Notes: generated from the letters alone by a model not told the origin. 64,000 nt of DNA from an uncultured Clostridia bacterium (GCA_934167495.1 CAKPKP010000001.1:133407-197406), one strand, 5' to 3'. Positions 17,497 through 49,030 are shown, counted from the first letter of the stretch. Numbers and translations: made by a program.

Positions 17497-17518
17497 ACGT
17501 CCTCGGACGTTTTTTTTA
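17497..17518 (+). terminator. rho-independent terminator
   Basis: acgtcctcggacgt + T8. Confidence 0.6.
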
Positions 17519-17520
17519 TA

Positions 17521-17632
17521 TAATAGGAAAATCATACAATTTTCCTATTATATAAATACTTTGTACAGAAATTTGTTATATGCAAATTTCACACACGAAC
17601 AATTAAACGTGGGCTAAATTCTACAAATTTAA
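17521..17632 (+). repeat. dispersed structured intergenic repeat, copy 1 (H1 hairpin + H2 hairpin + CACACGAACAATTAAACGTGGGCT arm)
   Basis: taataggaaa..tttcctatta hairpin, then aatactttgtacagaaatttg..caaatttcacacacgaacaattaaacgtgggct; shared with 5 other loci. Confidence 0.6.
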
Positions 17633-17645
17633 ATATAGGTGAAAT

Positions 17646-19364
17646 ATGAAATTAGAAAAGAAAAGATATTCTTATATAATAATTGCGGTAATAAGTATTA
17701 TAATGTGTTTGGGATTTAAGGACTATGATATAACACTTGCAGATGATGGATTTGTTCATTATTTAAGAGTAATTGGAACTGTAGAGTCTTTAAATGAAGG
17801 AATAATTCCACCACTTATTAGTCAATATTTTGTAAATAATTTAGGATATGGTATAAATCTATTTTATAATCCAATTGTAACTTATATACCTACTTTTTTA
17901 AAGATGTTATTGCCATTTTCATATTCTTACATATTAAAATTCTTTACATGTTTAACAGTATTTTTATCTGGTATATTTATGTTTGAATTTTGCAGAAATA
18001 TTTTTAAAAATAATAATATAGCAATAATTTCAGCAGTTTTGTATATAACAGCACCATATAGATTAACAGATATTTATATAAGATTTGCAATGGGGGAATT
18101 TACAGCATTTGTTTTTATTCCAATTTTATTATTAGGACTATATAATTTATTTTACGAAAATACAGAAAAAAGTTATTATATAACAATAGGTGCAGTAGGA
18201 TTAATTCTTACACATACAATAACTTTATATTATATGTGTTTTTTTAGTATATTATTTGTAATATTAAATATAAAGAAATTAAAAAATATAAAAATAATAA
18301 AAAAAATACTAATAAACATAGCTTTTATTGTAACAATTAGTGCATTTTTCTTAGTTCCACTTTTAGAATGTAAAATGTTTGCTAATTATGCAATATTTGA
18401 TGAAAATATAATGCAAACTAATGCAGAATGGGTAAAAGGAAAAACTATTCCTTTATCAGAAATATTTTTAAACAATGCTAAAACAGACGAAGATTTAAAT
18501 GTGTTATTTAGAATAGGAACACCATGTTTAGTATTTATTTTAATAGGAGTACTAATTTTCAAAAAAATAGATAATAAATATAAAAAATATTATATAATAA
18601 ATATGGTATTTTCATTATTATGTATATTTATGGCAAGTGAATATTTTCCTTGGGACAAGCTTCCAAATATATTATGCAAAATACAGTATCCATGGAGAAT
18701 GATAGGTTTTTTAACAGTATTTTTATCTATAGTGTGTTCAATAAACTTTTGTACATTTTTAGATATTTGTACAGTTAATAAACCAAAGGCTAAAATGATA
18801 TTTTTATGTATAATGATATGTTTAATAACAGCAAGTGGCATTGTAGATATATTGCCATATTTACAAGGTATGAGTGATAAAGAAAACAATAACGATATAA
18901 AATATGAAGAGTATATATTAAGTAATTTATCTATAGAACCAATGCAAATAAATAGGGAATATCTTCCTACAAAAGCACTTATGAATTTAAACTACATATC
19001 AAATAGAGATGAAAATGTAAAAATCATGAATGGAAATGCTAATATTAAAAACACAAAAAAAGAAAATTTAAATTATAGTTTTGAATATTCAAATGCAGAG
19101 AAAGATACAATAGTTGAATTACCATATTTGTATTATCCATATTATAATGTTAAAATAAATAATGAAAAAGTAGATATTATTGAATCAAGTAATGGATTAA
19201 TATCGTTAAAATTAAATGGTGAAGGAACTGTTACTTTAAAATATAGTTTAACTATATTTTCAAAAATAGCATATATAATTTCAATAATAAGTTTAATAAT
19301 ATTTATAATATATGTTATAAAGAAAAAAGAAAATATAAAGCTTATAGAAGAAAGAGAAAATTAA
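17646..19364 (+). CDS. GT-C fold membrane glycosyltransferase-like protein (YfhO-like)
   Basis: ~13 TM; DDGFVHYLRV motif in first extracytoplasmic loop. Confidence 0.45.
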   Translation: MKLEKKRYSYIIIAVISIIMCLGFKDYDITLADDGFVHYLRVIGTVESLNEGIIPPLISQYFVNNLGYGINLFYNPIVTYIPTFLKMLLPFSYSYILKFFTCLTVFLSGIFMFEFCRNIFKNNNIAIISAVLYITAPYRLTDIYIRFAMGEFTAFVFIPILLLGLYNLFYENTEKSYYITIGAVGLILTHTITLYYMCFFSILFVILNIKKLKNIKIIKKILINIAFIVTISAFFLVPLLECKMFANYAIFDENIMQTNAEWVKGKTIPLSEIFLNNAKTDEDLNVLFRIGTPCLVFILIGVLIFKKIDNKYKKYYIINMVFSLLCIFMASEYFPWDKLPNILCKIQYPWRMIGFLTVFLSIVCSINFCTFLDICTVNKPKAKMIFLCIMICLITASGIVDILPYLQGMSDKENNNDIKYEEYILSNLSIEPMQINREYLPTKALMNLNYISNRDENVKIMNGNANIKNTKKENLNYSFEYSNAEKDTIVELPYLYYPYYNVKINNEKVDIIESSNGLISLKLNGEGTVTLKYSLTIFSKIAYIISIISLIIFIIYVIKKKENIKLIEEREN

Positions 19365-23984: not shown

Positions 23985-24030
23985 AAAAACTATAATTATG
24001 TGTTATAATACATAATTATAGTTTTTTCTA
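23985..24030 (+). terminator. rho-independent terminator
   Basis: ctataattatg-tgttataataca-taattatag + T6. Confidence 0.5.
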
Positions 24031-24225
24031 TTATAGGAAAGTTCTCTGAACTTCCTATAATAGAAATATATTGCACAGAAATTTGCTTTGCAAATTTCGC
24101 ACACGAACAAAGACGCGGACTTCAAAATGTTTTAATAAGTGCAAAAGCTATTAATGTCCGCTTTTGTTCTCTAATAGGAAATTACTTTGAATTTCTTATC
24201 ATATAAATACTTTATGCAGGAGGAT
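24029..24225 (+). repeat. dispersed structured intergenic repeat, copy 2 (variant B with GAACAAAGACGCGGAC...GTCCGCTTTTGTTC long hairpin, plus second degenerate H1)
   Basis: near-identical to copy 5 over ~140 nt. Confidence 0.6.
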
Positions 24226-29993: not shown

Positions 29994-30026
29994 AAACAGA
30001 TATTTTTATAAATATCTGTTTTTTTG
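29994..30026 (+). terminator. rho-independent terminator
   Basis: aaaacagatattt-ttat-aaatatctgttttttt. Confidence 0.6.
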
Positions 30027-30088
30027 TCTAATAGGAAATTTCTCTGAAATTCCTATTAGACAAATACTTTGTACAGAAATTTTGTCCT
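30026..30088 (+). repeat. dispersed intergenic repeat, copy 3 (truncated after H2 start)
   Basis: gtctaataggaaatttctctgaaattcctattagac + aaatactttgtacagaaattt. Confidence 0.5.
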
Positions 30089-30857: not shown

Positions 30858-30933
30858 GCTTTCATAGCTCAGTCGGTAGAGCACTACCTTGGTAAGGTAG
30901 AGGTCGCGGGTTCGATTCCCGCTGTAAGCTCCA
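30858..30933 (+). tRNA. tRNA-Thr (anticodon GGT), CCA encoded
   Basis: GCTTTCATAGCTCAGTCGGTAGAGCACTACCTTGGTAAGGTAGAGGTCGCGGGTTCGATTCCCGCTGTAAGCTCCA; one U-U mismatch in acceptor stem. Confidence 0.75.
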
Positions 30934-30937
30934 ATTC

Positions 30938-31004
30938 ATGTCAATGGGGACGGAGATTTTTGACACAAAAACAAACTGTCAAAAACCTCCGTCCCCATTG
31001 ACAT
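30938..31004. repeat. 67-bp GC-cored palindromic element, copy P1
   Basis: atgtcaatggggacggagatttttgaca-caaaaacaaac-tgtcaaaaacctccgtccccattgacat. Confidence 0.7.
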
Positions 31005-31023
31005 ATTATTTAACATTAAACAG

Positions 31024-31052
31024 TTTACATAAGCACGAATATGTGGTATAAT
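31024..31052 (+). promoter_or_regulatory. promoter candidate TTTACA-17-TATAAT with extended TG
   Basis: tttaca...tgGtataat upstream of flotillin gene. Confidence 0.45.
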
Positions 31053-31136
31053 GTGCAGGTAGAGTTTTATTCTGTACAACAAAAGAATAATGTAGTGGAA
31101 AATATTAGTAAAATTTAAAAGGAGATGCTTATTATT

Positions 31137-32864
31137 ATGTTGCAAACGATTTTATCTATTATTATTCCTGTGGTAATTGTAATTGTTATACTTGTTGCAA
31201 TTATTCTGCTCGCAAAGTCTATGTACCGCATTGCAGATGTTGACAAAGCGCTTATCATTACAGGTGGCAAGAAACCAAAGATTATTGTCTCTGGTGGTGC
31301 TTTTGTAATTCCGATTATTCGGAAAGCGGATTTTTTTGATCTCTGCATGCTTACAGTACCAGCCGATGAAGATGAAATTATGACAAAAACAGCAGTTCCA
31401 ATTATTGTTGACTGGACAGCTCAGATTCGTCCTGACAGGTCAGACGATACTCAGCTTGAAACTGCCATTATCTCATTCAAAGAAAGAGGTAAGGGTGGTA
31501 TTATCGACGATGTTCGACTTACTCTTATGGGTGCGGTTCGTGATGTTGTTGCGAGCATGACACCAGAGGAAGTTCTTGCTGATAAAGAAACTTTTAAGAA
31601 AAATGTTCAGGTGTCTGTCGAAGATGAAATGAAAAAGATGGGGCTGGAGCTTGTTTCACTTAACATCCAGGATATCACTGACCGCAATGGTTATTTTGAT
31701 AATATTGCGTTCATTGATAAGGCCGAGAAACAACAAGCTGCTAATATCAAGGCTGCTGAGACTGATCGTATCACTCGTGAACGTAAGGCTTCTGAAAGTC
31801 TTGCGGCAGAAAAAGCTGAAGCAGAAGCAAAACGTCAGGCTGAAATTGCTCGAATGGATGCAGAGCAGGCTGAAAAGGAAAAGCGCAAGGAAACTGATAT
31901 GAAAATTGCTCAGTTCCGTATTGAGACAGACACTGCCCAAGCTGATGCTGAAGTTGCAAAGGAATTACAAGCAACTGTAAGACAGAAAGAAGTTGAAGAA
32001 CAGCGCGGTGCTGTTGAGATTATGAAGCAGGAGCAAATGAATCTCGCAGCCCAGAAGGAAAGAGAGGTCAAGATTACTCGCGCGGAATCCGAAAAGGCTA
32101 CTATGCTCATTGAGGCAGAAACTGCTGCTAATGTTAAGTCTATTGAGGCCCAAAATGAAATTCAGGTAGCTGAGCGCAAGGCTGATGCTAAGCGCAAGGA
32201 GGCAGAAGGTATTGCAGACGTTCAAAAAACTCAGGCAGCAGCACGTGTTGCTGTTGCTGAAAAGGAGGCCGAAGCAGTAAAAATGGGAGCAGAAGCTGCT
32301 GCTTCCAAGACTCGTGCAGAGGGTATTGCAGCGGCAGATGTTGCTAAGGCTCAGAAGGTAGCCGAAGCAGAAGGACATAAGGCTCAGCTTCTTGCAGAAG
32401 CAGAAGGTATTAAAGCTCAGCAGTTAGCTGAAGCAGAAGGTATCAAAGCTAAAAAACTTGCAGAAGCAGAAGGTGAACGAGTACTTGCTGAAGCACGAGC
32501 TGCTAATGATAAGGTCAACTTCGAAATTGAGAAGTTGAAAATTCAGACTGATGCTCAGATTAAGATTGCTACCAGCACTGCAGAAATTATGGCAAATATT
32601 GGTCAGAATGCTGAATTCGTCAATATTGGCGGCGGAAATCTCTCTAACCTCAATGGTAACGGAGTAACTGGCAATGCTCTTATTGACACTATCATGTCCA
32701 TTCCTGGAATTATGAAAGTTCTCAATGTTGAAAATCAGGTTCTTAACGGGAAATCAATGACTGATGAAATTAAGGAAATCTCTGATGCAACTTTGAGTGG
32801 TCTCAGTGGTTTGCGAAAATCTTCAGGAGAAACTTCAGAACCTGAAAAAACTAAAACCGAATGA
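31137..32864 (+). CDS. flotillin (FloT/YuaG-like SPFH/band-7 protein), compositionally foreign (~42-45% GC)
   Basis: N-terminal TM, SPFH core colinear with B. subtilis FloT, long Ala/Glu/Lys-rich coiled coil; ATG 31137 preferred (GGAG abuts 31125). Confidence 0.8.
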   Translation: MLQTILSIIIPVVIVIVILVAIILLAKSMYRIADVDKALIITGGKKPKIIVSGGAFVIPIIRKADFFDLCMLTVPADEDEIMTKTAVPIIVDWTAQIRPDRSDDTQLETAIISFKERGKGGIIDDVRLTLMGAVRDVVASMTPEEVLADKETFKKNVQVSVEDEMKKMGLELVSLNIQDITDRNGYFDNIAFIDKAEKQQAANIKAAETDRITRERKASESLAAEKAEAEAKRQAEIARMDAEQAEKEKRKETDMKIAQFRIETDTAQADAEVAKELQATVRQKEVEEQRGAVEIMKQEQMNLAAQKEREVKITRAESEKATMLIEAETAANVKSIEAQNEIQVAERKADAKRKEAEGIADVQKTQAAARVAVAEKEAEAVKMGAEAAASKTRAEGIAAADVAKAQKVAEAEGHKAQLLAEAEGIKAQQLAEAEGIKAKKLAEAEGERVLAEARAANDKVNFEIEKLKIQTDAQIKIATSTAEIMANIGQNAEFVNIGGGNLSNLNGNGVTGNALIDTIMSIPGIMKVLNVENQVLNGKSMTDEIKEISDATLSGLSGLRKSSGETSEPEKTKTE

Positions 32865-32911
32865 AATCCACAGTATAAACTCTAAGTTAATTACTAATCT
32901 ACTACATTCTT

Positions 32912-32950
32912 TTGGGAGGGTACCATCAATATGGATACCCTCTTTTTATT
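32912..32950 (+). terminator. rho-independent terminator
   Basis: gagggta-ccatcaatatgga-taccctc + tttttatttt. Confidence 0.55.
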
Positions 32951-32963
32951 TTGTTCTCAACGG

Positions 32964-33030
32964 ATGTCAACGGGGACGGAGATTTTTGACACAAAAACTA
33001 ACTGTCAAAAACCTTCGTCCTTATTGATAC
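32964..33030. repeat. 67-bp palindromic element, copy P2 (degenerate right arm)
   Basis: atgtcaacggggacggagatttttgacacaaaaactaactgtcaaaaaccttcgtccttattgatac. Confidence 0.65.
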
Positions 33031-33178
33031 TTGCTGTCATATAATGCAATTCAATAAGTAAGTTGACATTTTATGTAAAGCAATATATAATATATAATAT
33101 ATTTTTTAGTTACCCAAAAAGGTTTAACAAATCTTGGAGGGTAAAACCTCCAAGAAATACAAGGAGGAATTATTTATT

Positions 33179-33568
33179 ATGACTGCATTAAAGCAATTTA
33201 ACAGAGCACTTGAAAAACTGCCAACTAGATTAAAAGAATTAAAAAAATTAATTACCCAACAAGATTGGAAGAAAGAAGAGATAAATCAAGCAATTTCAAT
33301 ACTTGAAAGTCTTGAAGAAGGAGATTGGTTTGATTCAATACCATATGCCAGTATACAATTTACCAGGGTGGCATTGTACTTTTCTCCGAGTGAATGTGGA
33401 GTGAATAATAAGTTTTTTAATTCTAAAAATATTCTAAAGGCATGCGAATACACCCGTGGGTTGTTGGAAAAGATAAATGAAATATCTAAGTACATACAAT
33501 TTACCTTAGACGGATGGGCACTTGAAGATGAGGAAATGTGTATATTTTATATCAGGTGGGAAATTTAA
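33179..33568 (+). CDS. hypothetical 129-aa protein inside the islet
   Basis: AAGGAGG RBS; preceded by perfect hairpin cttggagggtaaaacctccaag; no recognisable motif. Confidence 0.45.
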   Translation: MTALKQFNRALEKLPTRLKELKKLITQQDWKKEEINQAISILESLEEGDWFDSIPYASIQFTRVALYFSPSECGVNNKFFNSKNILKACEYTRGLLEKINEISKYIQFTLDGWALEDEEMCIFYIRWEI

Positions 33569-33626
33569 AAAATATAGTTGAAATAGATAGGTTTTATACA
33601 AATTAGTATGAGACCTATTTATTATT

Positions 33627-33780
33627 TAATAGGAAATTCCAATGAAAATCCTATTAGATAAAATTACATTGTACAGAAATTTGCTATATGCAAATTTCGT
33701 ACACGAACAATTAAACGTGGGCTGAACGTTACAATTTAAAATGTAGAAAAATTTAATCAGCCACTATTGTTCTTTGGGGT
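33627..33780 (+). repeat. dispersed structured intergenic repeat, copy 4 (full variant A with 3-prime closing arm)
   Basis: H1, H2, and cacgaacaattaaacgtgggctga...tcagccactattgttc. Confidence 0.6.
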
Positions 33781-33786
33781 TGCTAA

Positions 33787-33820
33787 ATGATGTCAAAAAT
33801 CTCCGTCCCCATTGACATAT
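33787..33820. repeat. palindromic element half-copy P3 (exact reverse complement of P1 left arm)
   Basis: atgatgtcaaaaatctccgtccccattgacatat. Confidence 0.65.
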
Positions 33821-33839
33821 AAAATTGTGATGATATAAT
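33812..33839 (+). promoter_or_regulatory. promoter TTGACA-16-TGaTATAAT for mscL; -35 lies inside palindrome half-copy
   Basis: ccattgacatataaaattgtgatgatataat. Confidence 0.5.
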
Positions 33840-33876
33840 ATTTTTTAGTAAAATATATTATTATAGGAGAAGTATT

Positions 33877-34344
33877 ATGGGAAAAAAAGAAGAAATAATG
33901 AAAAAATTAGACAAAGATGAATTAAAAGAAGTAAACAAGAGAATAAGCAAAGGTGCATCAGAATTTAAAAAATTTATAATGAAAGGTGATGTTGTTGACT
34001 TAGCTGTTGGTGTTATAATAGGTGGAGCTTTTGGAAAAATAGTAACTTCTTTAGTAAATGATATATTAATGCCAATAATTGGAGTATTAATTGGAGGGAT
34101 TGATTTTAGTAATTTAAGTATTGATTTTATAGATGCTAAAATTATGTATGGCTCTTTTATTCAACAGGTTTTGGATTTTCTTATAATTTCATTATGTATT
34201 TTTATCTTTGTTAAAGTTATAGCTAAAATTACAAATAAAAAAGAAATTGAGGAAGAGAGTGAAAAAGAGAGTAAAAAAACAGATGTGGTTATATTATTAG
34301 AAGAAATTAGAGATTTGCTAAAAGAAAAAAATAATATAAAATAA
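33877..34344 (+). CDS. mscL: large-conductance mechanosensitive channel
   Basis: [29 protein letters not shown]. Confidence 0.9.
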
Positions 34345-34457
34345 GAAATTTGTATTTTGATTTAAAATATGCTATAATTCAAAGCATTATCAGGTTTTAA
34401 CCTGGAATTTCTAATTATATTCAACAAAAATAATTTTTTATTGGAGGTTTTAAAACT

Positions 34458-34753
34458 ATGTTAGAAAAATTTTTAAAGTACATTTGAATTCCTACAAATT
34501 CGAGTCATGAAACAGAAAAAAAGCCGAGTACAGAATCCAAATGGAATTTAGCAAGAGTACTAGTCGAAGAACTAAAAAATTAAATCCTGATTAAAAAAAT
34601 CATGTAGGTAAAACTTTAATTACTACAGATTATTACCAAAAGAATATCCTAAAACAACTGAAAATGATGAAGGATATTATCATATCGGTTCAATTCGAGG
34701 CGATGTTTCAGAAACAAAAATGAGATTTTTGATTAGAGATTTTAAAATGGCAA
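34458..34753 (+). pseudogene. peptidase T (pepT) remnant: N-terminal and mid-gene fragments with stops and a large internal deletion
   Basis: MLEKFLKYI*IPTNSSHETEKKPSTESKWNLARVLVEELK matches PepT N-terminus (ERFTTYVKVDTQSDES..PSTPGQLTLGNMLVDELK); EGYYHIGSIRGDVSETKMRFLIRDF matches PepT [25 protein letters not shown]. Confidence 0.6.
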
Positions 34754-34767
34754 ATTTGCTTTTTAAT

Positions 34768-35040
34768 ATTATAGGAAAGTTCGCTGAACTTCCTATAATA
34801 TAAATATATTGCACAGAAATTTGCTTTGCAAATTTCACACACGAACAAAGACGCGGACTTCAAAATGTTTTAATAAGTACAAAAGTTATTAATGTCCGCT
34901 TTTGTTCTCTCTTTTTCTATATATTTTTGGATAGAAAATTTACTAAAATCAATTCTGCACAATAACAATTAAATGTGGACTAATTTCCACAATTTGAAAT
35001 ATAGAAAAATTTAATTAGTCCATTATTGTTATATTATTTA
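34768..35040 (+). repeat. dispersed structured intergenic repeat, copy 5 (variant B module followed by variant A 3-prime module)
   Basis: near-identical to copy 2 for ~140 nt, then acaataacaattaaatgtggactaa...ttagtccattattgtt. Confidence 0.6.
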
Positions 35041-35165
35041 GATTTTGCATCAATAAATAAAATTTATTCTAAAAGCATTGTAATATTTAAAATATTTGAT
35101 ATAATCTAGTATATTGATTTTAAAATAAAATTAAAAATATAATAAATATAAAAGGAGAAAACAAA

Positions 35166-48890: not shown

Positions 48891-49030
48891 TAATAGGAAA
48901 TTTCTTTGAAATTCCTATTAAATAAATACTTTGTACAGAAATTTGATATATGCAAATTTCACACACAAACAATTAAACGTGGGTTGAACTCTATAATTTA
49001 AAATAATGTTATAAATGGTTTGTTTTTTGC
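48891..49030 (+). repeat. dispersed structured intergenic repeat, copy 6
   Basis: aataggaaatttctttgaaattcctatt + aaatactttgtacagaaatttgatatatgcaaatttcacacacaaacaattaaacgtgggttgaa. Confidence 0.6.

What the first reader, a model, noticed from the sequence alone, without database searches (positions are those of the whole stretch)
30934..33830. Compositionally foreign islet inserted next to tRNA-Thr(GGT): flotillin gene plus unknown gene bracketed by palindromic repeats
Immediately 3-prime of tRNA-Thr(GGT) (ends 30933) lies a 67-bp palindrome (P1). It is followed by a promoter and a flotillin/SPFH gene at about 42-45% GC, against about 27% for the flanking genome (counted on 60-nt lines). A terminator follows, then a second palindrome copy (P2), a 129-aa ORF of unknown function, a dispersed-repeat copy, and a half-palindrome (P3). 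P3 is the exact reverse complement of the P1 left arm, so CCGTCCCCATTGACATAT occurs as a direct repeat at both ends, about 31000 and about 33805. A tRNA 3-prime end plus flanking direct repeats plus atypical GC is the signature of a horizontally acquired islet. No integrase is present, which suggests an old or decayed insertion or mobilisation in trans. Flotillins normally pair with an NfeD gene, which is absent here, so the 129-aa protein is a candidate novel partner.
Basis: partly seen in the sequence, partly recalled or inferred. Interest (0 to 1): 0.8.

Follow-up and report, generated by a model that had tools for sequence, protein, structure and literature searches.

The report
Repeat-punctuated variable gene region beside tRNA-Thr
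The palindromes around this foreign-looking flotillin gene are copies of a genome-wide mobile repeat (REP/REPIN), not integration scars, and strains of this uncultured gut bacterium gain, lose and swap genes at these repeats.

Summary
The coordinates, the 67-bp palindrome, the half copy, the GC jump and the 129-aa ORF are all there.

P1, P2 and P3 belong to a dispersed, extragenic REP/REPIN family. I found at least 187 arms in 110 loci of low-GC gut Clostridia MAGs. In four MAGs the arms flank, in inverted orientation, a 226-aa Y1/HUH transposase. Its best solved relative is E. coli TnpA-REP (RAYT). Copies often sit 5-15 nt after tRNA or tmRNA genes, so a tRNA plus direct repeats is not an integrase signature here.

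The flotillin gene is a self-contained transcription unit with foreign codon usage (GC3 0.31 against 0.12). It lies in nine different genomic contexts and is laterally spread. ORF129 is a separate unit from a small unknown family and does not co-occur with flotillin.

Strains with an identical SigH carry at least eight arrangements of this locus. Most differences begin or end at REP copies. The window's P2 is a chimera of two REPINs that bracket 2 kb in other strains, which shows recombination between REPINs.

This is a new member of a known kind and is moderately interesting.

The parts
30858..30933 (+). tRNA-Thr(GGT). It forms the left border of the variable interval. In haplotype L147/L149, homology to the window stops exactly at its 3' end.
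   Evidence: ARAGORN, Rfam 72.3 bits, blastn of L147/L149.
30938..31005 (.). P1, a complete REPIN made of two inverted 28-nt REP arms (30938-30965 and 30977-31004) with an 11-nt spacer. It starts 5 nt after the tRNA.
   Evidence: hairpin -28.9 kcal/mol, z -11.4. Family membership. An identical copy lies in a different context in L147.
31024..31052 (+). Flotillin promoter (TTTACA, 17 nt, TG-TATAAT). It marks the start of the block conserved across contexts.
   Evidence: Consensus scan 11/12. DNA homology to L117/L118/L119 starts at 31008-31018 and to L137 at 31003.
31059..31136 (+). Flotillin 5' UTR. Two segments (31060-31075 and 31084-31098) are complementary to two segments of the 3' UTR.
   Evidence: Compensatory changes were read by eye from the printed sequences of L117, L122, L132 and L134. 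Duplex z-scores are modest (-1.4 to -3.8).
31137..32864 (+). Flotillin-like SPFH protein of 575 aa, with foreign codon usage. An alternative start at 31125 gives 579 aa.
   Evidence: Pfam Band_7 E 3e-19. NCBIfam FloT 143 bits against a cutoff of 700. GC3 0.309 against 0.125. Codon table.
32870..32949 (+). Flotillin 3' UTR (complementary segments 32870-32884 and 32899-32910) and intrinsic terminator (about 32914-32949). It marks the end of the block conserved across contexts.
   Evidence: Sequence. Homology ends at 32950-32955.
32964..33029 (.). P2, a REPIN in direct orientation to P1 with a degenerate right arm. It is a chimera: left flank and left arm match REPIN-a, and loop, right arm and right flank match REPIN-b, of strains L137/L148.
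   Evidence: Alignment A1. Maps of L137 and L148.
33063..33178 (+). ORF129 promoter (TTGACA-17-TATAAT, 33063-33091) and a conserved leader with two hairpins (about 33105-33163).
   Evidence: 12/12. The leader core is nearly invariant in L139 (about 3 mismatches and one 1-nt gap over some 55 nt) while the proteins are 37% identical. No Rfam match.
33179..33568 (+). ORF129, a member of a small uncharacterised family of about 130-aa proteins. It is a separate unit with GC3 0.279.
   Evidence: AlphaFold2 pLDDT 92.4. No fold or Pfam match. GC3.
33612..33790 (+). Copy of a host AT-rich dispersed repeat (MITE-like), unrelated to the REPs.
   Evidence: Further copies at 17506-17655, 24022-24210, 30014-30082, 34754-35030 and 48881-49004. 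One is polymorphically inserted after the flotillin terminator in L140/L141/L144/L146.
33791..33818 (-). P3, a REP singleton. Its outer TTGACA (33812-33817) serves as the -35 box of the mscL promoter.
   Evidence: Perfect 12/12 promoter with TG-extended -10 at 33834-33839. In L144 the -35 also comes from a REP outer-end copy.
33877..34344 (+). mscL. It lies inside the variable interval between tRNA-Thr and ychF and is absent from that interval in relatives L125-L127.
   Evidence: Pfam MscL E 7e-41..
34460..34760 (+). Remnants of a peptidase T-like (M20) gene. The gene is intact (398 aa) in L137, L142 and L144-L146.
   Evidence: Reading of the sequence. Blastn to L137 shows internal deletions. 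Pfam on the L137 protein.

Best explanation
The finding covers the left half of a hypervariable interval between tRNA-Thr(GGT) and ychF in an uncultured low-GC gut Clostridia species. REP/REPIN elements punctuate this interval.

P1 and P2 are REPINs, that is, head-to-head doublets of a 27-28-nt REP, TGTCAATGGGGACGGAGATTTTTGACA. P3 is a REP singleton. These are non-autonomous repeats. Their cognate enzyme is a RAYT-type Y1/HUH tyrosine transposase of 226 aa with a C-terminal helix-turn-helix. It is encoded elsewhere in such genomes and is itself flanked by inverted REPs.

Between the repeats lie independent gene units:
- a flotillin transcription unit (promoter to terminator, 1.95 kb) acquired laterally and spreading among low-GC Clostridia;
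- ORF129, a second self-contained unit of unknown function;
- in other strains, HAD+379aa, 404aa+148aa, or an IS-bearing segment.

The units are gained, lost and reshuffled mainly by recombination between REPIN copies. Direct REPINs of about 65 nt act as portable homology.

What is shown: the repeat family and its transposase; the foreign codon usage; the multiple contexts; the population polymorphism; and one REPIN x REPIN recombination product (P2).

What is inferred: that the recombination is RecA-type rather than RAYT-catalysed; that flotillin itself arrived or moved through REPINs; and that P3 drives mscL transcription.
For: Repeat family:
Nearly all are low-GC gut Clostridia MAGs. It hits none in viral contigs.
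- There are 187 arms in 110 loci: 51 head-to-head pairs with spacers of 2-60 nt, and 85 singletons.
- The arms are extragenic. Only 11% lie inside ORFs, against 75.5% of bases.

Transposase:
- A 226-aa protein is flanked on both sides by inverted arms in L010, L030, L067 and L096.
- It matches Pfam Y1_Tnp at E 4e-12 and NCBIfam REP_Tyr_transpos at 76-79 bits, against a cutoff of 80.
- A profile of the family has PDB 4ER8 TnpArep as best hit, with the HUH and YIYxNPVK motifs aligned.

tRNA proximity: REPs lie 5-15 nt after tRNA or tmRNA 3' ends in L013, L029, L044, L048 and L096.

Flotillin:
- GC3 is 0.31 against 0.125. CAG is 72% against 8%. CGN Arg codons are 85% against 4%. The likely highly expressed pta, ackA and bipA do not share this pattern.
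- The gene lies in nine contexts.
- Between the window and L117, flotillin is 88% identical, syntenic housekeeping genes are 50-68% identical, and BipA is 86% identical. The excess of identical codons over the codon-usage expectation is 0.45 for flotillin against 0.05-0.22 for those genes.
- REP-like sequences lie at the unit edges in the window, L119, L129 and L132.

Population data:
- There are at least eight haplotypes with identical SigH.
- P2 is a chimera of REPIN-a and REPIN-b, which bracket HAD+379aa in L137 and L148.
- Relatives have sigH-tRNA-Thr-ychF adjacent.
Against: - No RAYT gene lies in the 64-kb window, and I could not check the rest of this genome.
- The NCBIfam RAYT score is just under its cutoff.
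- The REP hairpin within a single arm is weak (6 bp, -2.1 kcal/mol). It lacks an obvious GTAG tag, unlike classical REPs.
- Across the family, genes next to REPs are not enriched for atypical GC3 (6/118 against 19/391, Fisher p = 1). REPs are therefore not generally linked to foreign genes.
- Five of nine flotillin contexts show no REP at one or both edges. The REP-like matches in L119, L129 and L132 are degenerate (6-9 mismatches or indels).
- The conserved flotillin block equals the transcription unit. Selection alone could preserve it, so the block does not define a mobile segment.
- The direction of the P2 event (deletion or insertion) is not determined.
- The flotillin donor lineage was not identified.
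Confidence: 0.72

Rival explanations
1. First reader's model. This is a classical tRNA-targeted genomic islet, integrated by a site-specific (tyrosine) recombinase at the 3' end of tRNA-Thr. P1 and P3 are attL and attR. The integrase has since been lost, or acted in trans.
For: The position is immediately 3' of a tRNA. An 18-nt direct repeat lies at both ends. The composition is atypical. Relatives lack the insert. In L147/L149 another 2.6-kb insertion starts exactly at the tRNA 3' end, and GCTCCAATTCA (the tRNA end plus spacer) recurs before two REPINs. In L134 flotillin is also near a tRNA.
Against: The 'att' sequences are ordinary members of a family with more than 180 sampled copies, found at unrelated intergenic sites and flanking a Y1 transposase. 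A third full copy (P2) lies inside the islet. L137 carries the same flot...ychF block next to ispD, with no tRNA and no P1. Flotillin and ORF129 vary independently between strains. There is no integrase in the window. The repeated sequence does not overlap the tRNA itself.
Confidence: 0.07
2. RAYT-catalysed transposition. Two REPINs flanking a gene act like the left and right hairpin ends of an IS200/IS605 element. The RAYT then excises and reinserts REPIN-gene-REPIN composites as single-stranded DNA. This would explain the flotillin unit's many locations.
For: P1 and P2 are direct REPIN copies bracketing exactly the flotillin unit. REP-like remnants lie at both edges in L119 and at one edge in L129 and L132. 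Several haplotype breakpoints coincide with the outer edge of a REPIN rather than its interior: window 31003 against L137, and P1 in L147. The cognate enzyme is an HUH/Y1 protein.
Against: According to the literature, RAYTs are single-copy and REPIN movement is rare (PMC3337134). The one junction that could be resolved (P2) is a homologous-recombination chimera with the crossover inside identical arm sequence. L117/118, L120, L122 and L134 have no REP at either edge, and L137 has none on the left. There is no genome-wide link between REPs and atypical genes.
Confidence: 0.13
3. Nothing is mobile. Flotillin is an old vertically inherited gene whose GC is high because of its Ala/Glu-rich sequence and high expression. 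The REPs landed nearby by chance, and the differing contexts reflect ordinary genome rearrangement.
For: About 40% of the GC excess is explained by amino-acid composition. The L134 homologue has a host-like GC3 of 0.15. The conserved block equals the transcription unit. REPs are not generally linked with atypical genes. No close homologue lies on known plasmids or phages.
Against: Likely highly expressed host genes do not share flotillin's codon usage. GC3 ranges from 0.15 to 0.42 among hosts of similar GC. Flotillin and its non-coding flanks (84-89% nt identity) are far more similar between the window and L117/L119 than the syntenic cmk and w284 genes, whose identical-codon excess is near zero. 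The locus shows presence/absence and pseudogene polymorphism within one species. All five arms in 64 kb cluster in 2.9 kb.
Confidence: 0.08

Closest known systems
REP/REPIN-RAYT systems (Pseudomonas fluorescens SBW25 REPINs; E. coli REP/BIME with TnpA-REP, PDB 4ER8)
   Same: Both have short, abundant, extragenic repeats that occur as inverted doublets forming long hairpins, plus singletons. Spacers vary. The cognate HUH/Y1 protein is flanked by inverted repeat copies. The best structural-sequence relative is E. coli TnpA-REP (definitions from PMC3337134).
   Different: The host is low-GC Clostridia. The 2013 REP survey I read (PMC3733652) has no occurrence of 'Firmicutes' or 'Clostridi'. RAYT group 1 is noted in Clostridia, but with few associated repeats (PMC5581495). 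The transposase is longer (226 aa, with a C-terminal helix-turn-helix). The single-arm stem is only 6 bp, with a 15-nt conserved loop and no evident GTAG tag. The same 27-nt core is shared by MAGs whose RAYTs are only 64-75% identical. The arm ends carry TTGACA hexamers.
REP-mediated chromosomal rearrangements (tandem duplications and deletions with REP join-points in Salmonella and E. coli; from my own knowledge, not checked here)
   Same: Dispersed REP copies serve as short homologies for recombination. The chimeric P2 is such a join-point.
   Different: Here the events cluster in one tRNA-proximal interval. They generate a set of alternative gene contents in a natural population.
tRNA-associated genomic islands and integrative elements
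   Same: Both are tRNA-proximal, compositionally atypical, variable between strains, and bounded by direct repeats.
   Different: There is no integrase. The repeats are not tRNA-derived att sites but members of a dispersed family. The content is a mosaic of independently varying single units.
Integron gene cassettes (attC hairpins)
   Same: Gene units are separated by imperfect palindromes that fold as single-stranded hairpins, and content varies at one locus.
   Different: There is no IntI integrase, no attI and no GTTRRRY cores. Every unit has its own promoter and terminator. The palindromes are dispersed genome-wide. No enrichment of atypical genes next to them was found.
Bacterial flotillins (B. 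subtilis FloT/YuaG with NfeD partner YuaF)
   Same: Both have an N-terminal membrane segment, an SPFH/Band_7 domain and a long Ala/Glu-rich coiled-coil region. FloT is the best NCBIfam model.
   Different: The score is far below the FloT equivalog cutoff (143 against 700 bits). No Pfam NfeD hit is listed for any called gene in the contexts fetched. The gene is carried as a stand-alone unit with conserved complementarity between its 5' and 3' UTRs.

Membership tests
REP/REPIN repeats | Short repeat that is itself an imperfect palindrome | tested here: met
   Each 27-nt arm is TGTCAA-N15-TTGACA. The 6-bp stem is weak (-2.1 kcal/mol, z -2.1).
REP/REPIN repeats | Occurs as inverted doublets (REPINs) that form a hairpin, with variable spacers, plus singletons | tested here: met
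   There are 51 head-to-head pairs with spacers of 2-60 nt and 85 unpaired arms. P1 folds at -28.9 kcal/mol, z -11.4.
REP/REPIN repeats | Many copies per genome, in extragenic space | tested here: met
   At least 12 loci fall in one MAG, and the scan was truncated. Only 11% of arms lie inside ORFs, against 75.5% of bases. The copy number in the window's own genome is unknown beyond the five arms in 64 kb.
REP/REPIN repeats | Conserved unpaired tetranucleotide tag (GTAG or CGTC) at one end of the hairpin | tested here: inconclusive
   No GTAG lies beside the stem. A CGTC occurs inside the conserved loop (CTCCGTCCCC), not at the end described in PMC3733652.
RAYT (REP-associated tyrosine transposase) | IS200-like Y1 fold with HUH motif and catalytic Tyr | tested here: met
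   Pfam Y1_Tnp scores above its cutoff. The H-A-H and YIYxNPVKAG motifs are invariant in 18 sequences. They align to 4ER8 TnpArep at E 8e-4.
RAYT (REP-associated tyrosine transposase) | Passes the curated family threshold (NCBIfam NF047646) | tested here: not met
   The scores are 79.1 and 75.9 bits against a cutoff of 80. This is a near miss, and the protein carries an extra C-terminal domain.
RAYT (REP-associated tyrosine transposase) | Gene flanked by its cognate REPs in inverted orientation | tested here: met
   Seen in L010, L030, L067 and L096.
RAYT (REP-associated tyrosine transposase) | Single copy per genome, vertically inherited | not tested
   Only MAG fragments were held. The uniform length of 225-226 aa among the 120 best of 1557 hits fits this feature but does not prove it.
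RAYT (REP-associated tyrosine transposase) | Cleaves and joins REP DNA | not testable with these tools
   This needs biochemistry.
tRNA-integrated genomic island | Site-specific recombinase gene in or next to the element | tested here: not met
   I saw no integrase among the ORFs listed for 28-37 kb or the Pfam-scanned proteins, and no RAYT in the window.
tRNA-integrated genomic island | Direct repeats derived from the tRNA 3' end (att core) | tested here: not met
   The repeated sequence begins 5 nt after the tRNA and belongs to a dispersed family. Only an 11-nt stretch, GCTCCAATTCA, recurs in L147.
Integron cassette array | IntI integrase, attI, attC sites with conserved cores, mostly promoterless cassettes | tested here: not met
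   None of these features is present. The units have their own consensus promoters.
Flotillin (FloT/FloA) | SPFH/Band_7 domain with an N-terminal membrane anchor and a C-terminal flotillin coiled-coil repeat region | tested here: met
   Band_7 covers residues 38-210. A hydrophobic N-terminus and Ala/Glu-rich 11-residue repeats are visible.
Flotillin (FloT/FloA) | Equivalog-level match to FloT; adjacent NfeD partner | tested here: not met
   The score is 143 bits against a cutoff of 700. No Pfam NfeD hit is listed for any called gene in the contexts fetched.

The most novel reading that the evidence does not exclude
REPINs in these Clostridia may act as portable attachment or recombination sites. 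They would let self-contained single-gene units (flotillin, the ORF129 family and others, each with its own promoter, leader and terminator) be captured, exchanged and passed between species at hot spots such as the tRNA-Thr/ychF interval. That would be a RAYT/REPIN-based functional analogue of an integron. The near-identical 27-nt core across species would supply the shared homology or recognition site.
Probability: 0.15. Interest if true: 0.8.

Novelty: new member of a known kind. Interest (0 to 1): 0.5.

Why it matters
REP/REPIN-RAYT systems have been studied almost only in Proteobacteria. This is a well-populated family in abundant, uncultured low-GC gut Clostridia. Its core is conserved across hosts (rabbit, chicken, deer, sheep, mouse, human) and its transposase has an extra DNA-binding domain.

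The locus gives a natural series of at least eight haplotypes. In them, gene gain and loss can be read at repeat boundaries, including one resolved REPIN x REPIN recombinant. That makes the role of REPINs in genome plasticity directly testable.

It also warns annotators. 'tRNA + direct repeats + odd GC' can be produced without any integrase.

Finally, the stand-alone flotillin unit and the ORF129 family are candidates for follow-up. ORF129 has a confident fold with no known match, and its leader is far better conserved than its protein.

Tried and rejected
- Rfam found nothing but tRNAs at gathering thresholds. Sub-threshold hits to the palindromes were generic miRNA-hairpin models.
- The arm has no match in viral contigs. 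No paper containing the core 10-mer concerns bacterial repeats.
- The two small ORFs downstream of flotillin in L117 and L118 are unrelated to ORF129.
- PADLOC gave no hit for flotillin, ORF129, HAD or the 379-aa protein. PHROGs gave only weak hits.
- Flotillin has no close homologue on plasmids or phages (31.5% identity at most).
- High expression was rejected as the cause of flotillin's codon usage.
- I tested whether REP-adjacent genes are generally GC3-atypical. The result was negative.
- Simple identical-codon fractions were misleading because of extreme host codon bias, so I replaced them with an observed-versus-expected measure.
- The flotillin 5'/3' UTR duplex energies are only modestly better than shuffles.
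- I could not find the flotillin donor lineage. I could not show a RAYT in the window's own genome. I could not recover an exact empty site (tRNA-REPIN-mscL) in the population sample, because only 24 of 154 index blocks were read.

Full report
**1. Observation**

- tRNA-Thr(GGT) ends at 30933.
- Five bases later begins a 67-bp palindrome, P1. Its arms are 30938-30965 and 30977-31004, with an 11-nt loop. As single-stranded DNA it folds at -28.9 kcal/mol, z -11.4.
- A second copy, P2 (32964-33029), is 92% identical to P1 over 64 nt and has a decayed right arm.
- A half copy, P3 (33791-33818), is 100% complementary to the P1 left arm.
- A search for the arm with up to 3 mismatches gives 4 matches against 0 in shuffles. 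With the degenerate P2 right arm there are five arms in 64 kb, all in this 2.9-kb stretch.

Between P1 and P2 lies an SPFH/Band_7 flotillin-like gene at 31137-32864, with its own promoter and terminator. Between P2 and P3 lie a 129-aa ORF and a copy of an unrelated AT-rich host repeat.

GC rises to 0.41-0.49 across the flotillin gene, against about 0.25-0.28 around it.

**2. How foreign is flotillin?**

Its GC is 0.425. The same protein written in host codons would give 0.336, and host genes average 0.268. So roughly 40% of the excess reflects the Ala/Glu-rich protein.

The remainder is real codon-usage deviation:
- GC3 is 0.309 against a host mean of 0.125. Apart from one minus-strand ORF at 46333-46923 (see section 7), no other ORF of at least 150 aa in the window exceeds 0.19.
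- CAG is 72% against 8%.
- AAG is 55% against 11%.
- CGN arginine codons are 85% against 4%.
- CTT, CTC and CTG together make 79% of leucine codons in flotillin. CTT plus CTC are 72% against 12% in the host.

Likely highly expressed host genes (pta, ackA, bipA, GGGtGRT) show none of this, so expression level is not the cause. ORF129 is also atypical, with GC3 0.279.

**3. What the palindromes are**

Nearly all are low-GC MAGs labelled Clostridia, from rabbit, chicken, deer, sheep, mouse and human guts, often with many loci per MAG. It matches nothing in viral contigs.

In those 110 loci I count 187 arms with at most 4 mismatches. They comprise 51 head-to-head doublets with spacers of 2-60 nt (mode 17) and 85 unpaired arms. 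Partial tandem duplications of the outer end are frequent. The arms are extragenic: 11% lie inside ORFs of at least 120 aa, although such ORFs cover 75.5% of the DNA.

In four MAGs (L010, L030, L067, L096) a 226-aa protein is flanked on both sides by arms in inverted orientation.
- It matches Pfam Y1_Tnp above its cutoff.
- It matches NCBIfam 'REP-associated tyrosine transposase' at 76-79 bits, against a cutoff of 80.
- A profile of 18 family members finds E. coli TnpA-REP (PDB 4ER8) as the best solved relative. The HUH motif and the YIYxNPVK tyrosine region are aligned and invariant.
- The family is large (1557 hits). The best 120 hits are all 224-233 aa, almost all 225-226.

These are the defining features of REP/REPIN-RAYT systems as summarised in PMC3337134.

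Several differences from the classical systems stand out:
- The host phylum differs. The REP survey PMC3733652 has no occurrence of 'Firmicutes' or 'Clostridi'. PMC5581495 notes group 1 RAYTs in Clostridia.
- The transposase has an extra C-terminal helix-turn-helix.
- The single-arm stem is short, with a conserved 15-nt loop.
- There is no evident GTAG tag.

**4. Why the tRNA signature is misleading**

Family members sit 5-7 nt after tRNA 3' ends (L013, L029, L044). They sit about 6-15 nt after tmRNA genes (L048, L096). A REPIN beside tRNA-Thr, plus further copies downstream, therefore mimics attL/attR without any integrase. I found no integrase in the window.

**5. Comparative evidence on the region**

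Relatives with 69% SigH identity and 80% YchF identity have sigH-tRNA-Thr followed directly by ychF, only 330-470 nt later. The whole 4.2-kb stretch from 30934 to 35165, including mscL and the peptidase remnants, is therefore variable DNA. The insert is not just 30934-33830.

Flotillin homologues form a continuous series from 99% to 65% identity. They lie in nine different contexts:
- the window;
- L137, next to ispD;
- L117/118;
- L119;
- L120;
- L122;
- L129;
- L132;
- L134, about 100 nt after tRNA-Gln.

In every context GC is 0.37-0.48 in hosts of 0.22-0.30. GC3 spreads from 0.15 to 0.42.

DNA similarity between the window and L117/118/119 runs from 31008-31018 to 32950-32955. That is exactly the transcription unit lying between P1 and P2.

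L117's genome is syntenic with window 41.5-45.6 kb (cmk, acyltransferase, bipA). Those proteins are 50-68% identical between the two genomes, BipA is 86%, and flotillin is 88%. The excess of identical codons over the codon-usage expectation is 0.45 for flotillin. It is 0.05-0.11 for cmk and w284, and 0.22 for bipA. The non-coding promoter and UTRs are also still 84-89% identical. This points to lateral spread after the hosts diverged.

REP-like sequences abut the unit in the window (both sides), L119 (both sides, degenerate), L129 (upstream) and L132 (downstream, a variant). The other contexts have none.

**6. Population structure of the locus**

Contigs encoding an identical SigH, plus L137 (about 97.5% nt identity), show at least eight arrangements:

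| Haplotype | Loci | Arrangement |
|---|---|---|
| H1 | window | tRNA-P1-flot-P2-ORF129-MITE-P3-mscL-decayed pepT-ychF |
| H2 | L142, L145 | as H1, with pepT intact |
| H3 | L148 | two REPINs (a, b) bracket HAD+379aa between flot and ORF129 |
| H4 | L137 | same middle as H3, but ispF-ispD on the left and no P1; homology starts at window 31003, the outer edge of P1 |
| H5 | L144, L146 | flot-MITE-REPIN-mscL, without ORF129 |
| H6 | L141 | as H5, with pepT missing or decayed |
| H7 | L140 | as H5, with flotillin split into 95+441 aa by substitution |
| H8 | L147, L149 | homology ends exactly at the tRNA 3' end; then 2.6 kb with an rve-type IS, then a P1 copy, then 404aa+148aa, then a truncated REPIN; flot absent from the 4.9 kb held downstream of the tRNA |

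Alignment A1 resolves one event. The window's P2 has the left flank and left arm of REPIN-a, and the loop, right arm and right flank of REPIN-b. The crossover lies within about 33 identical bases. This is a homologous-recombination product between two direct REPINs. It either deleted or inserted the 1.95-kb HAD+379aa segment.

P1 and P2 are direct repeats arranged in the same way around flotillin.

**7. ORF129 and other items**

ORF129 looked like an orphan in the word-indexed search. An exhaustive HMMER search then found about 25 clusters of 114-139-aa proteins at 27-41% identity.
- With that alignment AlphaFold2 gives pLDDT 92.4 and pTM 0.84.
- A homologue (L139) lies upstream of ftsY with no flotillin in the 486 nt held upstream. 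Its GC3 is again atypical (0.30 against 0.13).
- Its 5' leader core is nearly invariant compared with the window's (about 3 mismatches and one 1-nt gap over some 55 nt), although the proteins are only 37% identical.

ORF129 is therefore an independent unit with a strongly constrained leader. It is not a flotillin partner.

P3's outer TTGACA, followed by 16 nt and TG-TATAAT, forms a perfect promoter for mscL. In H5 the -35 also comes from a REP outer-end copy.

The flotillin 5' UTR carries two segments complementary to two 3'-UTR segments. Compensatory changes are visible by eye in diverged homologues. The energy z-scores are modest.

One other ORF has flotillin-like composition. The minus-strand ORF at 46333-46923 has GC3 0.345 and no Pfam match. 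It appears to be the only minus-strand gene in the window. I did not follow it up.

**8. Limits**

- No RAYT lies in the 64-kb window, and I could not see the rest of this genome.
- REP adjacency is not generally associated with atypical genes in the family (6/118 against 19/391, p = 1). This argues against a general 'cassette system'.
- The REP-like matches at flotillin edges in other genomes are degenerate.
- The flotillin donor is unknown.
- Whether recombination is RecA-type or RAYT-assisted is inferred, not shown.

**9. Verdict**

The region is a REPIN-punctuated, recombination-prone variable interval. It carries a laterally acquired flotillin unit and an independent small gene of unknown function. 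It is not an integrase-type tRNA islet.

This is a new member of a known kind, REP/REPIN-RAYT. It comes with an unusually informative natural haplotype series and is moderately interesting.

Noticed in passing
window 33105-33163; L139 417-470: The 5' leader of ORF129 (TTTTAGTTACCCAAAAAGGTTTAACAAATCTTGGAGGGTAAAACCTCCAAG) forms two hairpins. The second pairs a GGAGG with a CCUCC just upstream of the real Shine-Dalgarno. The leader core is nearly invariant (about 3 mismatches and one 1-nt gap) in a homologue whose protein is only 37% identical. There is no Rfam match. It is a candidate cis-regulatory RNA.
   Followed up: partly
window 31060-31098 and 32870-32910; same positions in L117, L119, L120, L122, L129, L132, L134: Two segments of the flotillin 5' UTR are complementary to two segments of its 3' UTR. 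Compensatory changes are visible by eye, for example AGAG/CTCT in the window against ATAG/CTAT in L117, and entirely different but still complementary sequences in L122. Duplex z-scores are only -1.4 to -3.8. The order of the segments would require a pseudoknot or alternative pairings.
   Followed up: partly
window 17506-17655, 24022-24210, 30014-30082, 33612-33790, 34754-35030, 48881-49004: This is a second, AT-rich dispersed repeat of about 130-190 nt with several hairpins. All copies appear to lie in gaps between the plus-strand ORFs, by coordinates only. It is unrelated to the REPs and gives no Rfam hit at gathering thresholds. An extra copy is inserted right after the flotillin terminator in L140/L141/L144/L146.
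   Followed up: partly
window 34460-34760: These are decayed remnants of a peptidase T-like M20 gene with internal deletions. The gene is intact (398 aa) in L137, L142, L144, L145 and L146.
   Followed up: yes
window 46333-46923 (minus strand): This appears to be the only minus-strand gene in an otherwise plus-strand window. It encodes 196 aa with GC 0.386 and GC3 0.345, so it is another compositionally atypical single gene. It has no Pfam match and no REP arm nearby.
   Followed up: no
L147 6771-9403 and 9404-11600; L149: In some strains a 2.6-kb segment carrying an rve-family IS begins exactly at the 3' end of tRNA-Thr. The 11-mer GCTCCAATTCA (tRNA end plus spacer in the window) recurs immediately before two REPINs that bracket a 404-aa + 148-aa gene pair. 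This may be a Campbell-type duplication of flank plus REPIN.
   Followed up: partly
L010 4097-4777, L067 5573-6253, L096 2164-2841; alignment A2: The RAYT-like proteins carry a conserved C-terminal helix-turn-helix (ISLRKIAKE..L.RE.IR.LY) with weak sigma-70 region-4-like hits. The REP arms begin and end with TGTCAA/TTGACA, the -35 consensus. A link between the two is speculation.
   Followed up: no
L009, L027, L035, L037, L041, L046, L144 8996-9015 and others: REP outer ends are often followed by short tandem partial copies (CCCATTGACA or CTCCGTCCCCATTGACA). In several loci these appear symmetrically on both sides of a REPIN. That suggests hairpin-templated copying or arm-to-arm conversion.
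   Followed up: no
L140 6974-8689: In one strain flotillin is split into 95-aa and 441-aa ORFs. It differs from L144 by 5 substitutions and no indel, so the split is presumably a nonsense mutation. The gene is therefore dispensable in the gut.
   Followed up: partly
L010 5028-6560: A 510-aa phage-integrase-family protein lies next to the RAYT locus of one rabbit MAG. It follows a truncated thrS fragment whose reading frame runs into a REP arm.
   Followed up: no
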